A stretch of 63,074 bases of DNA, the filler included, from Reclinomonas americana ATCC 50394 (Eukaryota): assembly GCA_048213135.1 (NCBI GenBank). It is 12 parts of 10 records of this genome, joined end to end, with 100 filler letters (N's around TTAATTAATTAA, not from the genome) between each part and the next. Parts side by side here need not be neighbours in the genome. Positions count along the whole stretch, not along the records: positions 34,279 to 44,195 come from PS016084.1; positions 44,296 to 54,660 come from AFZH01016673.1; 10 more parts are not named here. One strand, written 5' to 3'. Shown piece by piece: positions 36,256-49,006 of this stretch (position 1 is the first letter of the stretch; each line of letters begins with the position of its first letter). The notes beneath the pieces are model-generated. The model saw only the letters and a list, made by a program, of their open reading frames with translations, was not told the DNA's origin and searched no databases. Made by a program: the position numbers and the translations under genes.

Positions 36256-39200
36256 AGCGCATCGTTTCGCACTCCCTCCTCCTCCTCCTCCTCCTCCTTC
36301 TTCTTCTTCTTCTTCTTCCTCATCATGGATTGTCGTTGTTTCGATTCCCTGTTGCAGAACCGGCTGGCATGTTGAAGGACACGAAGAAGAAGCACACCCA
36401 AGAGAGCACAGCCGCCATTGCCGCTGCTCGCAATGACGCGGAGAATCACACTGAGAAGGGTGCGTCTCTCTCTCTCTCTCTCACTCACTCTCTCTCTCTC
36501 TTTCCTGCAGTCATTGGCGTTCTCGCGTCACTTGATGTCTCACCTGGGCGATGCATATACACAGCTGCTCACCAGGAACACATGGAACAAACAGCGATGG
36601 AAGGCATCGTCGAGGTACAGTGATTGTGTGTCATCCCATTATGAGCATGTCTCTAACTGAACTCTCTCGCTCTCTCTTTCATGGCATGATTGCACAGCAA
36701 CATGCGAGGAGGCGGCGAGTCGACTCGTCCCTGGTTGATCACCGCGAGGGCATGCCTGCGCGTGACTCAGTTGAGACATCGGTCCGCAAGCGTTTTCTGG
36801 AGGAGAGCTCCGATGAGGCATGCGTCTCACTTTGCTTCTCTCTTGTGCATCGCAGTTGACACCTGATGTTTTTCCTCATTCTTTGCAGGTGGATGCATCC
36901 AGCGAGGACGAGCTTGCGCCGCCAAAGAAAAAGAAGAAGGTGTGAATTCTCTGTCGCTAACATTGTTGTGCTTGTTCATCGATGTGCATTTGGGTTCTTG
37001 TGTGTCAATGACGCATGTTGTTGATTCACAGCTCGGCAAGACTCGAGCTGCGAAAACCCCAGTGGAGTTGAGCGCTGACGAGGAGCTGTTGCTGAACAAG
37101 CTGCTTGTTGCGTGTGCATGCTCTCTCTGACATCGTTGCAACGCCTTCAGCCTCCTACTTCTCCTCGTCGCACTCACCATTCTTCTCCTGTCACTCGCAG
37201 CGATGCAATCGGAAGAGGATTCTGGTGAGGGCATTCGGGTTGATGGCACCCATTGTTCAGAAGTCCACTGTCGTCCACCATCAGAGTGTTCTCTTCGACG
37301 TTGCCTGCGACGACTGCAGAATTCCATCGTCGGAGCGGGGTTGCACGTCGTCAGCAGTCAAGTGTGCTTTCGGCAAGAAGCTTGGTCAAACTGCCAATAA
37401 TTCACGCCACTCAATGCCCAAATCTGTGGAGAGTACGCTCCAGAGCGTGAGCAACTATATCGAGGTGAGCAAGCGTGTGCGTTGTGACGGCCGTGGCATA
37501 TTGAACCAACATGCAGATGATTGCACAATGCAGATGAGCCAACTCAGTGGCGCGGCTCTGGCGGATGCTGTTGAAAGACCACTGATAGGGGTGGACGAGC
37601 GCGGGTATTCGGAGGTGCGTGTTGTGCATGATTATTTGTGTCTTCTGCGATCGTGTCGACTGACGTTTATTCTCTCGGCTTCATTGGCAGGAGTCATGGG
37701 AGATATTACCAACACAAAACAAATCTCGAAAAGACCATCTTCAGCCGTTTGTCACACAGGCCATGGGTGCGCTGCGCAAGTGTGATGGTCTCACGACTGC
37801 ACTGCTTCGAGACAACCACCTCTCTGATGCCGAGATTGCACGCGCCGTCACGTGGTGCCATGCGAAAGGTCTGCATTTGCATGCGGCTATTGGTGTTGCA
37901 CTGATGTTGACCAGCATTACGCAGAATCTGGCGATGTGAGAATGGTGATGAAGAAAGACGACGATGACATCAAGCATGAAGAAGATGACACCAAGGTGAG
38001 CATCAACAGTTCATGAATGACGAAGACTGAGTGTGTCTTCGTGGGCTCGGCCACGCGCTGATGCGTTGCGTTCACAGGAGGATGCAGGAAGTGATGATGG
38101 TGAAGAATCAAAGACGAGCAAGGTACGACGTTGTCGCCGCCTGTGTATGGCTTGGGAGGCAGAAGTGTTGATGGTTGATGTCTCATGGGGTGCGTACTTG
38201 CAGCACGTCAAGTGCGGTCGCATTGTAGTCGATGCGGATTCGAGCAAGGACGACCGAATCGTGCTGGACAGACTGCTTGTTGCGTGTGCAATACCCCAGC
38301 AGGGCAGATTAGTTGCACTCTGCCATGTGCTTGCCTGTCATTACGCCTAATGCGTGCGCATGTGTGCGAACAGCGGTGCAACAAGAAGAAGATATTGGTG
38401 ACGGCATTCGGTTTCATGGCGCCGATTCTGAAGCCATCCACTGTTTTGCATCATCAGCGCGTTCTCGTTGAACTCGCCTGCAAGGAGTGCGGTATTCCTT
38501 CATCGGGAGCTGGCAGTCCGTCGTCCGCAGTCACGGATTCATTCGGAAAGACTCTTGGCCATGTCGTCAATGACGCACGCAAATGCACCCCCAAATCAGT
38601 TGAGGGAGTGCTTCAGAGCATGGGCAAGTTCATCGAGGTGAGCATCGGTCTGTGTTATCCATCTTACACGTGACTGCAAAGTGAACCAGCATGAATACAT
38701 GTGCAACTCTTGCAGAAGAGTGAACTGCGCGGCGCTGCTCTGGCGGATGCCATTGAGAGACCACTGATTGTGGTGGATGAACGGGGACATTCGGAGGTGT
38801 GCAAACTTTCCTTCGTGCGCTTTTTACATCTCCTGGTTTGTGTCCACTCACCCGTGTCTTTTACGATGTCGATCGTGCTTCAGGAGTCATGGAAGATGAT
38901 GGAGAAGAAGCCGAATGGCAGCGACCGTCTCCTGTCACTCATAGCCCACGCCTTGCAGGCCCTGCGCGAGTGTCCTGGCTTGCAAGCGTCGCTGATTCGA
39001 GACGGCTGTCTCTCCGAGGCGGAGATAGCACGGGCCGTCGAGTGGTGCAGTGAGAGAGGTTTGATTGCATCGGATGCGTTTTGCTGTGCGTTGGGTCAGG
39101 GCTGACGAACGACATGCAGCTCTGCTGGAGGCCAAGGTGCTGAAGAAAGAAGAGATGAAAAAGGAGGAGGAAAAGGAGGATGATTTGAGGGTTGACGGGG

Positions 39201-46800: not shown

Positions 46801-49006
46801 CTAGCATAGCTGCACAGTGTGCGCATATGCTCAACAACGACTGAACAGCACTGAGGGAGATGGAGATGGTGAAGAAAGAGGAGAAGAGGGAGGAAGAGCA
46901 GAAGGACGAGGACGATGTGAAGGTACGCCCGTCGCTCGTTTTCGTTCGGCGAGACGAGTTCGTGTCCTAACTTTGATTGGATTGCGCTTCACAGCGCCGC
47001 AAGAGTGGTCCTGGGAAGCTGAGCGTCAACGAGCATCTGATGCTGGCGAAATTACTTGTTGCGTGTTGCTATCATCTCTGCACGTCACCGGCAATGCTGT
47101 TACTACCGTCTGCTCACCGCGCCTTGGCGTAGGGTCGCAACAAGAAGAGGATACTGGTGAAGGCATTCGGTTTGATGGCACCCGTGGTGATGTCATCCAC
47201 GGTCCTCCATCATCAGCGCGTTCTCCTCCAACTTGCCTGTGACGAATGCGGAATACCATTGGAGGGACGGGGTTGCCCTTCGGCCGCAGTCATGGCTGCA
47301 TTTGTTAAGAGTCTTGCCACAAGTGCCAGTAAAACACGCAGCAAGACGCCCAAATCAGTTTTGGGCGTTCTCGAGAGCATGAGCAACTTCATAGAGGTGA
47401 GTGTGTCGGTGTGTTGTTTCAGTGTCCTTCCGATTGTTATGTCCGTGGTACCTGACTGGATGTCACCATCAGAAGAGCGGACTTCGAGAAGCTGCGCTGG
47501 TGGATGCTGTTGAGAGACCACTGATTGTGATTGACGAACGTGGCTACTCTGAGGCGCGTGTGAGATTGTGTTTGCTAATGCGCGTCATTGAAAGCTGGCT
47601 CACGAATACTGCTGTGGCTTGGATGGGTAGGAATCAGCAAAGTCGCAGAAGGGAGGCACTCCTAATGCTCTTCTGCCACACGTCATGCAGGCCGTGCAGG
47701 CTCTCCACGGCTGTCCAGACCTGCTGGCCACTCTGCTTCGGGACGGCTGCCTTTCGCAGGCGGAGATTGCAAGTGCCGCCGTGTGGTGCAGTAAAACAGG
47801 TTTGGCTGCTTGTGCTCGCGGCTTTGTTGCTTACGTGTGCTGAGAAATGAGTGACCAGTCGTCAGGGAGATGGAGATGGCGAAGAAAGAGGAGGAGAGGG
47901 AGGATGAGCAGGAAGATGATGACGACAGCGAGAATGAGGACGATGACGCGAAGAGAAAGAAGGCACGCCCGACGCTGCGAACTTGTCATGCATGAGGTGC
48001 GTCTCAATACTGCGTGGTTTGTGTTTCACAGCGCCGCAAGATTGATCCTGCGAAGTCGAGCATCAACGAGCATTTGATACTGGCGAGATTGCTTGTTGCG
48101 TGATCTCTGTATCGCCGACATTGCTATCATAAACTCCTCACTCGCTCCCACCCATCTGTTACACCCGAGAGCAGGGCGGCAACAGGAAGAGAATGCTGGT
48201 GAAGGCATTCGGTCTCATGGCACCCGTGGTGATGCCATCCACAGTCCTCCATCATCAGCGCGTTCTGTTCCAACTTGCCTGTGACAACTGCGGCATACCA
48301 TCGAAGGGACCGGGCTGTCCATCATCCGCAGTCATGGCTGCATTTAGCAAGAGTCTTGCCAAAAGTGCCAGGAATGCACGCGGCACGACGCCCAAGTCAG
48401 TGGAGGGTGTGCTCGAGAGCGTGAGCGATTTCGTCGAGGTGAGTGTCAGTTCGTTATTTCTGTGTCACATCCGCTTGTGGTGTGCGTGGCTACTGACCGA
48501 GCTTCCATTGTGTGCATGTGGAATCATCAGAAGAGCGGACTTCGAGGAGCTGCGCTGGTGGATGCTGTTGAGAGACCACTGATTGTGATTAACGAGCGTG
48601 GGCACTCTGAGGCATGCCAATCATGATTGTGTATACTGTTGTGATTTGACGATGCTGACTTGCTTTGCTTTTCTCGGATTGTAGGAATGTGCCGAGCACA
48701 TTCAGAAGGGAGGCCCAAATGCTCTTCTGATTTTTGTCACACAAGCCACGTATCTGCTCCACAACTGCCCTGGCCTGCTGGCCACTCTGCTTCAAGACGG
48801 TTGTCTTTCAAAGGCGGATATTGCGCGTGCCGGTGAGTGTTTTAAATGCGACGATCTGGGAACACCTTGTGGTGTTGCATGTCGTCCCGGCATCCTCACT
48901 GACGAGCATGAATGCAGTGGTGGGCGACGAGAAGCCGGTGAAGATGGAGGTGGTGAAGAAAGAGGAGGAGGAGGAGGAGGAGGAGGAGGAGGAGGAGGAG
49001 GAATAA
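43509..49006 (+). CDS. Uncharacterised protein with four tandem ~200-aa modules (paralogue B)
   Basis: Same N-terminus (MAARRPPPPRPH...SSPCDDEKADMM) and module exon structure as paralogue A; core exons start near 45059, 46120, 47133 and 48175; TAA at 49004-49006. Confidence 0.8.

What the first reader, a model, noticed from the sequence alone, without database searches (positions are those of the whole stretch)
37031..49006. Unrecognised ~200-aa domain amplified nine times as a five-exon cassette in two tandem genes
Seen: each module has exon a (...S.xEQLMLARLL, phase 0-0), exon b (264 nt in all five A units, phase 0-0, with a conserved HHQR-x6-C-x2-CG motif), exon c (81 nt, phase 0-0, ERPLIVxDERG), exon d (CPGL...DGCLS) and an acidic linker ending in basic residues. 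An NLS-like RKR...PPKKKKK precedes the array. Frames, intron positions and motifs are kept despite clear divergence, which suggests purifying selection. I do not recognise the domain. Inference: a lineage-specific nuclear, possibly metal-binding, multivalent protein. Because homologous introns share phase, splicing from one unit into a later unit stays in frame and could yield combinatorial chimeric isoforms.
Basis: partly seen in the sequence, partly recalled or inferred. Interest (0 to 1): 0.7.

Follow-up and report, generated by a model that had tools for sequence, protein, structure and literature searches.

The report
Orphan helical module repeated in twin genes
Two neighbouring genes of an unidentified, intron-rich microbial eukaryote each encode a long protein made of four or five copies of a roughly 190-residue helical module that matches no known protein family; the way it was built is ordinary, and its function is still only inferred.

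Summary
Nine copies of one module lie on the + strand, five in gene A (about 36369-42329) and four in gene B (44466-49006). Each module is split at the same places into exons a, b (264 nt in 9 of 9), c (81 nt in 9 of 9), d and an acidic linker exon. My splice models give unbroken frames of 1200 and 966 codons.

The nine copies are five old module types. An ~8-kb segment holding the whole gene was later duplicated (~85% identity). Gene B then lost one module by a crossover inside exon b, so its first unit is a U1/U2 hybrid.

Selection acts on the protein: overall pN 0.12 against pS 0.22, all exon indels in frame, and exon c the most constrained (pN/pS 0.14-0.21).

No relative was found by Pfam, PDB sequences, a profile search of 1.84 billion proteins, or the ESM Atlas. 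Only pieces of the module could be folded. They came out helical, with low confidence and no clear fold match.

A nuclear, multivalent role is inferred from basic modules, acidic linkers and NLS-like motifs. Metal binding is weakly supported. Combinatorial splicing would stay in frame but has no evidence, as no RNA data were found. This is a real orphan repeat-protein family of moderate interest.

The parts
36369..42329 (+). Gene A. Five modules (U1-U5), 29 exons from the ATG at 36582 (1200 codons), or 30 exons and about 1254 codons if it starts at the ATG at 36369. The stop codon is 42327-42329.
   Evidence: Spliced model with no internal stop. The 5' extension stays in frame in both gene copies across a (CT)n intron whose length differs between them.
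44466..49006 (+). Gene B. Four modules (U6-U9), 23 exons, 966 codons. The stop codon is 49004-49006. Its 5' end may lie further upstream, behind a masked stretch at 44196-44295.
   Evidence: Spliced model with no internal stop.
36889..36939 (+). Exon before the array encoding VDASSEDELAPPKKKKK (NLS-like). The exon before it (36698-36817) holds the RKR stretch. The gene B counterpart is 44772-44822 (PPMKKKK).
   Evidence: An NLS function is inferred from the sequence only.
37032..38122 (+). Unit U1: a 37032-37106, b 37201-37464, c 37534-37614, d 37691-37868, and two linker exons 37925-37995 and 38078-38122.
38204..39244 (+). Unit U2: a 38204-38278, b 38374-38637, c 38716-38796, d 38884-39058, e 39120-39244.
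39309..40264 (+). Unit U3: a 39309-39371, b 39463-39726, c 39791-39871, d 39954-40128, e 40191-40264.
40339..41304 (+). Unit U4: a 40339-40401, b 40477-40740, c 40827-40907, d 40970-41138, e 41198-41304.
41373..42329 (+). Unit U5 (last of gene A): a 41373-41435, b 41521-41784, c 41877-41957, short d 42029-42179, and a terminal linker-like exon 42265-42329 ending in poly-E.
44913..45915 (+). Unit U6, a hybrid. Exon a, the a-b intron and the start of exon b are U1-like; the rest is U2-like. a 44913-44987, b 45059-45322, c 45399-45479, d 45561-45732, e 45794-45915.
   Evidence: blastn break points and two trees with opposite placements of U6.
45055..45112 (+). Crossover zone. This stretch of gene B aligns both to U1 (up to 37254) and to U2 (from 38370), that is, to the first ~55 nt of exon b.
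45979..46922 (+). Unit U7, partner of U3: a 45979-46041, b 46121-46384, c 46449-46529, d 46612-46786, e 46849-46922.
46995..47962 (+). Unit U8, partner of U4: a 46995-47057, b 47133-47396, c 47473-47553, d 47631-47799, e 47859-47962 (GC donor).
48032..49006 (+). Unit U9, partner of U5 and last of gene B: a 48032-48094, b 48175-48438, c 48531-48611, d 48685-48832, terminal exon 48918-49006.
35031..42982 (+). First copy of the duplicated segment: gene A with its upstream and downstream flanks. It is interrupted by an N run at 35366-35966.
   Evidence: blastn against 43410-49634 gives 80-88% identity in five colinear pieces.
43410..49634 (+). Second copy of the duplicated segment: gene B with its flanks. 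It is interrupted by N runs at 44196-44239 and 44252-44295.

Best explanation
These are two real, tandemly duplicated protein-coding genes of an unidentified intron-rich protist.

Shown:
- Each gene encodes a string of ~190-residue, mostly helical, mildly basic modules (pI 8.4-9.5).
- The modules are separated by 24-41-residue acidic Glu/Asp/Lys linkers.
- Five diverged module types share the same intron positions and phases.
- The ~8-kb segment holding the gene is duplicated at ~85% identity.
- Gene B's first unit is a U1/U2 hybrid.
- Selection acts on the protein and is strongest on the 27 residues of exon c (K-S-x-L-R-G-A-A-L-x-D-A-x-E-R-P-L-I-V-x-D-E-R-G-x-S-E).

Inferred history:
- The module arose once and was amplified together with its four internal introns to five copies by tandem duplication of a phase-0-bounded cassette.
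- The whole gene was copied later.
- Gene B then lost one module by unequal crossing-over within the first ~55 nt of exon b.

Inferred function (my odds about 0.3): a nuclear, perhaps nucleolar or chromatin-associated, multivalent scaffold. Each basic module would bind the same kind of ligand, a nucleic acid or an acidic partner protein, through the surface that includes the exon c segment. The acidic linkers would act as spacers or as competing internal ligands.
For: Anatomy and coding:
- Exon sizes, phases and splice sites are the same in 9 of 9 units.
- The spliced frames run 1200 and 966 codons without a stop, against 51 and 57 stops in the other two frames.
- All 50 modelled introns end in AG. 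44 start with GT and 6 with GC. Lengths are 56-95 nt.
- GTTGCG, the a-b donor here, was noted by earlier agents as a common donor class of this genome (a lead, and it agrees).

History:
- The unit alignment, blastn break points and two trees pair U3/U7, U4/U8 and U5/U9.
- U6 groups with U1 in the 5' part (support 99/100) and with U2 in the 3' part (100/100).

Selection:
- dN/dS is 0.25-0.40 between units of gene A and 0.35-0.69 between A-B partner units.
- Overall pS is 0.225 against pN 0.122, p = 1.4e-8.
- Exon c has pN/pS 0.14-0.21 while its pS is like that of exon b, so this is constraint on the protein and not gene conversion.
- Exon gaps between A and B are 3, 15, 3 and 3 nt, all in frame. 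Introns, with 0.4 times as many aligned bases, carry 62 gap positions.

Composition:
- Modules have net charge +3 to +9. Linkers have 11-19 Asp/Glu against 6-9 Lys/Arg.
- Basic clusters stand before the array and at the joints.

Orphan status:
- Pfam gave nothing significant on exons b, c and d or on the surrounding frames. The same tool recognised seven neighbouring genes from single frames.
- The profile of nine exon b peptides against 1.84 billion representatives gave 3 hits with E up to 0.001. All were long repetitive proteins matched in 3-16 partial stretches, which I judge spurious.
- Word-indexed searches with exon b and with exons c+d found none. PDB sequences gave a best E of 0.48 and 0.16.

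Helical nature: exon b is predicted as four helices and exon d as three, with block-mean pLDDT about 50-78 in those parts.
Against: - There is no RNA evidence. No sequencing run could be listed and no whole genome is held, so transcription, the exact junctions and the start codon are models only.
- The full spliced module could not be folded or searched as one chain. The two piecewise models are poor (mean pLDDT 54.9 and 53.8). A known fold may therefore have been missed.
- Exon b evolves almost neutrally in two A-B pairs: dN/dS is 1.01 for U3/U7 and 0.91 for U5/U9.
- Exon and intron identity between the gene copies are nearly equal, 86.8% against 84.9%. One copy may be drifting.
- The nuclear and binding parts rest on composition and short motifs only.
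- N runs lie inside the duplicated region. If they are scaffold gaps, the tandem order depends on the scaffolding.
Confidence: 0.6

Rival explanations
1. The module is a very diverged member of a known fold, for example a helical bundle followed by a winged-helix or HTH-type DNA-binding unit formed by exons c and d. The proteins would then be ordinary multi-domain DNA or RNA binders whose kinship is hidden by fast evolution and by my piecewise analysis.
For: - Exon c is predicted as a helix plus a beta hairpin, and exon d as three helices (low confidence).
- 1 of 9 exon d peptides gave a weak HTH_24 match, E = 0.19.
- The modules are basic.
- Only fragments could be searched.
Against: - No Pfam family reaches significance in any of the nine copies.
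- The Atlas feature scores were 0.80 and 0.86, below the 0.9 mark.
Confidence: 0.25
2. It is a fast-evolving, lineage-specific family used in interactions with other organisms or in self/non-self contexts. Tandem gene copies, changes in module number and relaxed or diversifying evolution of exon b would generate variety. It would not be a housekeeping nuclear scaffold.
For: - There are tandem gene copies, and module number changed by unequal crossover.
- dN/dS is about 1 in exon b for two A-B pairs.
- Each module has 6-8 Cys.
Against: - Neither modelled start has a hydrophobic N-terminal signal-like stretch (read by eye).
- Highly charged linkers and basic clusters suit an intracellular protein.
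- Exon c is strongly conserved in all nine units.
Confidence: 0.1
3. One or both genes are untranscribed relics or part of a mobile element, and the open frames persist only because the duplication is young.
For: - Exon and intron identity between the copies are similar, 86.8% against 84.9%.
- There is no expression evidence.
Against: - The five module types are old (pS 0.36-0.61 between them), yet all keep frame, splice sites and dN/dS of 0.25-0.40.
- Both copies have only in-frame exon indels.
- No transposase, reverse transcriptase or integrase match was found. The one hit on an antisense frame is far below threshold: E = 0.065, 13.7 bits against a cut-off of 26.3.
Confidence: 0.05

Closest known systems
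Domain-repeat proteins expanded by internal tandem duplication (Bjorklund, Ekman and Elofsson 2006, PMC1553488; abstract read)
   Same: Both have tandem copies of one domain inside one protein, expanded by internal duplication. Here the repeat unit coincides with exon boundaries, which fits the abstract's remark that exon shuffling can possibly explain the expansion in some families.
   Different: The repeated domain here belongs to no Pfam family. Each domain is itself split by four introns that were copied along with it.
Phase-symmetric exon modules with disordered linkers (PMC3632108; search listing and start of abstract only)
   Same: The cassette is bounded by phase-0 introns, so copies can be added or lost without breaking the frame. 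The cassette edge lies at a charged, probably unstructured linker (linker state inferred from composition).
   Different: That paper concerns human exons in general. Here a whole five-exon set is the symmetric unit, while exon d and the linker exon on their own are asymmetric (0-1 and 1-0).
Nuclear architectural proteins with several basic domains and acidic tracts, such as UBF or nucleolin (recalled; not from a call)
   Same: Both alternate basic folded modules with acidic Glu/Asp tracts and carry basic NLS-like clusters. Both would work by multivalent binding.
   Different: No HMG box, RRM or any other known nucleic-acid-binding domain was detected. The resemblance is one of layout only.
Five-module, five-exon-cassette tandem gene family noted on another piece of the same genome (earlier finding e1-7397575)
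   Same: The description is the same: tandem genes, five copies of a five-exon cassette, and a helical domain without detectable relatives.
   Different: I could not read that locus. A word look-up with exon b of U4 found no look-alike window. It may be a diverged paralogous cluster or another family.

Membership tests
Domain-repeat protein built by tandem duplication of an exon cassette | Homologous units lie head to tail within one reading frame | tested here: met
   There are nine units with 53-83% amino-acid identity. 44 of 200 columns are invariant and 106 are kept in at least 7 of 9 units.
Domain-repeat protein built by tandem duplication of an exon cassette | Intron positions and phases are the same in every unit, and unit length is a multiple of three | tested here: met
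   Exon b is 264 nt and exon c 81 nt in 9 of 9 units. The phase pattern is 0-0, 0-0, 0-0, 0-1, 1-0. Units are 657-720 nt, all divisible by 3.
Zinc- or metal-binding Cys/His module | A fixed set of three or four Cys/His ligands kept in all copies | tested here: not met
   HH is kept in 9 of 9 units, but the first Cys of CxxC only in 7 of 9 and the second in 8 of 9. Other Cys (CPG 9 of 9, DGC 8 of 9) form no recognised pattern.
Zinc- or metal-binding Cys/His module | The ligands come together in space | tested here: inconclusive
   In the model, HH and CxxC sit on one helix (residues 21-39 of exon b) about ten residues apart. The model is of low confidence, mean pLDDT 54.9.
HTH / winged-helix DNA-binding domains | A significant profile match or a clear fold match | tested here: inconclusive
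Transposon or viral protein | A match to transposase, integrase, reverse transcriptase or capsid families | tested here: not met
   No significant Pfam match was found on exon b in all nine units, exon d in all nine, exon c of U2, or on 11 surrounding frames of both strands.
Transposon or viral protein | Terminal repeats, target-site duplications, or dispersed copies in the genome | not testable with these tools
   No whole genome is held. Within the window there are no copies outside the two genes.
UBF / nucleolin-type nuclear acidic-basic proteins | HMG boxes or RRMs | tested here: not met
   Pfam found no such domain.
UBF / nucleolin-type nuclear acidic-basic proteins | Acidic tracts alternating with basic domains | tested here: met
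   Modules have pI 8.4-9.5. Linkers have 11-19 Asp/Glu against 6-9 Lys/Arg.

The most novel reading that the evidence does not exclude
The ~190-residue module is a truly new helical ligand-binding domain confined to an unsampled protist lineage. It would be the building block of a multi-locus family of nuclear multivalent scaffold proteins, with the exon c segment (ERPLIVxDERG) as its binding site. Module number would be tuned by unequal crossover and possibly by in-frame skipping of whole cassettes.
Probability: 0.3. Interest if true: 0.5.

Novelty: new member of a known kind. Interest (0 to 1): 0.3.

Why it matters
If the models are right, this is a protein domain with no detectable relative among 1.84 billion representative proteins. 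It is kept under selection in at least nine copies in a eukaryote that itself has no close sequenced relative. The locus also records, in one place, three textbook steps of repeat-protein evolution: cassette amplification with its introns, whole-gene duplication, and module loss by unequal crossover. It does not open a long-standing question. Its value is as a candidate new fold and as a marker family for this lineage.

Tried and rejected
- Whole-genome search: no genome is held for this window.
- Sequencing runs: none was listed and no RNA holder was listed. Expression, junctions and unit skipping could therefore not be examined, and read laying was not used.
- Metagenome scan with the exon b profile: 150 pattern matches, none confirmed by tblastn.
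- Word-indexed protein searches with exon b ('longer') and with the exon c+d alignment ('longer'): nothing at E up to 0.01.
- Exhaustive profile search with exon b: 3 hits, all repetitive proteins matched piecewise, rejected as spurious after reading them.
- PDB sequence search with the exon b and exon d profiles: best E 0.48 (sarcospan) and 0.16 (P450-type hydroxylases), rejected as noise.
- ESM Atlas with exon b and exon d: first hits 0.80 and 0.86, unnamed clusters, below the 0.9 mark.
- AlphaFold2 on two stop-free window frames that read through an intron (U1 b+intron+c, and U2 c+intron+d), with the other units' exons as alignment rows: mean pLDDT 54.9 and 53.8.
- Fold searches with those two models: only generic helical matches.
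- Co-folding of the exon b and exon d peptides: 'no answer', score 0.01. This is no evidence either way.
- Earlier-findings look-ups by place near the finding and by sequence: nothing.
- Ideas recalled from memory and dropped for lack of any supporting match: HD and HD-GYP phosphohydrolases, globin repeats, HhH-GPD glycosylases, SAP, BEN and RAP/PD-(D/E)XK domains.
- Joining the poly-E end of the last exon to the conserved stretch just downstream: the only GT there gives the wrong phase, so I keep the stops at 42327-42329 and 49004-49006.
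Full report
**What is there**

The window is eukaryotic DNA of about 53% G+C, with many short GT-AG introns and (GA)n and (CA)n runs. A motif scan and inspection of the three + frames show nine copies of one module between 37032 and 49006.
- Exon b is 264 nt in all nine copies and is bounded by AG and GT.
- Exon c is 81 nt in all nine.
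- Exon a is 63 or 75 nt and ends before GTTGCG (8 of 9) or GTTACG (1 of 9).
- Exon d starts in phase 0 behind AG|GA(G/A)T and ends in phase 1.
- The linker exon starts in phase 1 and ends in phase 0 at AAG|G(T/C)A.
- A second possible donor lies 9 nt upstream of the exon d end in six units. It would remove three residues and changes nothing else.
- Earlier agents working on other pieces of this genome noted GTTGCG as a frequent donor class. That fits the a-b introns here, but it is a lead and not independent proof.

**Gene models**

Joining the exons by coordinates gives the following.
- Gene A has 29 exons and 1200 codons, with its stop at 42327-42329.
- Gene B has 23 exons and 966 codons, with its stop at 49004-49006.
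- Neither has an internal stop. The two other frames of A's spliced sequence have 51 and 57 stops.
- Of the 50 modelled introns, all end in AG. 44 begin with GT and 6 with GC. Lengths are 56-95 nt.
- The frame probably starts further upstream, at the ATG at 36369. An exon at 36369-36459 and the next at 36511-36614 are in frame in both gene copies, while the (CT)n intron between them differs in length. That would add 54 residues to gene A.
- Before the array lie an RKR stretch and PPKKKKK (PPMKKKK in gene B).
- The last exon of each gene resembles a linker exon and ends in poly-Glu.

**History**

A DNA alignment of the nine units, blastn of the two halves and two maximum-likelihood trees agree.
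- U3/U7, U4/U8 and U5/U9 are partners.
- For exon a, the a-b intron and the start of exon b, U6 groups with U1 (support 99/100). For the rest, it groups with U2 (100/100).
- The blastn pieces are A 36488-37254 against B 44372-45112 (86%) and A 38370-42982 against B 45055-49634 (85%). They overlap in B at 45055-45112, the first ~55 nt of exon b.
- Flanks are duplicated too: 35031-35331 against 43410-43714, and downstream to 42982 against 49634.
- So five module types, 53-72% identical in protein, predate a duplication of the whole ~8-kb segment.
- Because U1 and U2 are old and different, loss of one unit in B by unequal crossover is more economical than gain in A.
- N runs at 35366-35966 and 44196-44295 lie inside the duplicated region. 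If they are scaffold gaps, the tandem order depends on the scaffolding.

**Selection**

- Nei-Gojobori estimates give dN/dS of 0.25-0.40 between the units of gene A. Between A-B partners they are 0.44, 0.68, 0.35 and 0.69.
- Summed over the four A-B pairs, pS is 0.225 and pN is 0.122, Fisher p = 1.4e-8.
- Against strong constraint: exon identity (2193 of 2527, 86.8%) barely exceeds intron identity (862 of 1015, 84.9%).
- Also against it: exon b alone gives ratios near 1 in two pairs.
- For constraint: the exon gaps between A and B are 3, 15, 3 and 3 nt, all in frame, while the introns carry 62 gap positions.
- Exon c has pN/pS of 0.14 (A against B) and 0.21 (within A), with a pS like that of exon b. 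Its conservation is therefore at the protein level and is not due to gene conversion.
- Of 200 alignment columns, 44 are invariant and 106 are kept in at least 7 of 9 units. The densest block runs from the end of exon b through exon c.

**What the module is**

Sequence searches found no relative.
- Pfam at E up to 1 or 10 on exons b, c and d and on 11 surrounding frames of both strands gave nothing significant.
- The same tool recognised HMG-CoA reductase, formate-tetrahydrofolate ligase, a homeodomain, WD40, BTB/BACK, ankyrin and a sulphur-transport domain from single frames of neighbouring genes. This serves as a positive control.
- A profile of the nine exon b peptides, read against 1.84 billion representatives, returned three hits with E up to 0.001. 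All three were long repetitive proteins matched in partial stretches.
- The two word-indexed searches returned nothing.
- PDB sequence searches gave nothing significant.
- The Atlas gave nothing above its 0.9 mark.
- The metagenome scan confirmed no match.
- That library does hold eukaryote sources. The HMG-CoA reductase fragment of this window finds thousands of relatives there, but none above 69% identity. The organism itself is therefore poorly sampled.

Folding was limited.
- The spliced protein could not be handed to the folding tool. I folded two stop-free frames that read through an intron.
- Exon b comes out as four helices and exon d as three. Exon c is a helix plus a hairpin.
- Confidence is low, with mean pLDDT 54.9 and 53.8.
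- The fold is therefore open.

**Function**

This part is inferred.
- The modules are mildly basic, with pI 8.4-9.5. Exon b carries net +3 to +10.
- The linkers are strongly acidic, with Lys/Glu-rich starts and Asp/Glu runs that include S-x-x-E sites. They end in basic residues that, together with the next exon a, form clusters such as KRNKRRK.
- This layout, plus the basic stretches before the array, suggests a nuclear multivalent protein. I put that at about 0.3.
- Metal binding is weak. The CxxC is lost in U3 and half lost in U7. In the model it shares one helix with HH.
- Unit-to-unit splicing would stay in frame because all homologous introns share phase and each unit is a multiple of 3.
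- However, every modelled intron is under 100 nt, and intron sequence is poorly kept between different units. I saw nothing that points to regulated exon choice, and there are no RNA data.

**Comparison and verdict**

- The construction follows the known pattern of domain-repeat expansion by internal duplication (PMC1553488, abstract read) and of phase-symmetric modules (PMC3632108, listing only).
I could not read that locus, and a word look-up with exon b of U4 found no look-alike window.
- The finding is real.
- It is a new family of a familiar kind, of moderate interest.

Noticed in passing
window 41958, 47554, 48612 (c-d introns of U5, U8, U9); 47963; 36818; 44702: Six of the 50 modelled introns of the two genes start with GC instead of GT (GCATGT, GCGCGT, GCATGC, GCACGC, GCATGC, GCGTGC). 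Two of them are shared by partner units, so they predate the gene duplication. This is a high share for GC-AG introns.
   Followed up: partly
window 37107, 38279, 39372, 40402, 41436, 44988, 46042, 47058, 48095: All nine a-b introns use the donor GTTGCG (8) or GTTACG (1). Earlier agents reported this atypical class as common in this genome.
   Followed up: partly
window 9929-10624 (+): An HMG-CoA reductase exon (Pfam E = 1e-53). Its best identities in 5.8 billion proteins are only 48-69%, spread over amoebozoans, heteroloboseans, jakobids and fungi. The organism therefore has no close sequenced relative in that collection.
   Followed up: partly
window 6532-6631, 10626-10725, 13241-13340 and ten more places: Thirteen pairs of 44-base N runs, each pair separated by 12 bases, plus three long N runs (1907-2898, 17990-18760, 35366-35966). 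The regular pairs look like masking rather than assembly gaps. One pair (44196-44295) lies just upstream of gene B.
   Followed up: no
window 35100-35365 and 43480-43900 (+): Upstream of both gene copies lies a duplicated open frame (M-A-x-R-P-P...SPCDDEKADMML...DDDKKKSAL). It may be a further 5' exon of the same genes or a small separate gene. It is cut by the N run in copy A.
   Followed up: no
window 32702-33748 (-), 50024-51433 (-), 55315-56412 (-), 19224-20543 (+), 26964-27455 (-), 60633-62197 (-): The neighbours are ordinary eukaryotic genes: a homeodomain protein, a YeeE/YedE-type sulphur-transport protein, two WD40 proteins, formate-tetrahydrofolate ligase, a BTB/BACK protein and an ankyrin protein.
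   Followed up: partly
window 42330-42982 and 49007-49634 (+): The ~650 bases after each stop codon are also duplicated, and part of this stretch still reads alike as protein (GKQF...LDV.SK...). I found no in-frame way to splice it to the last exon, so it is probably 3' UTR kept by the youth of the duplication.
   Followed up: partly
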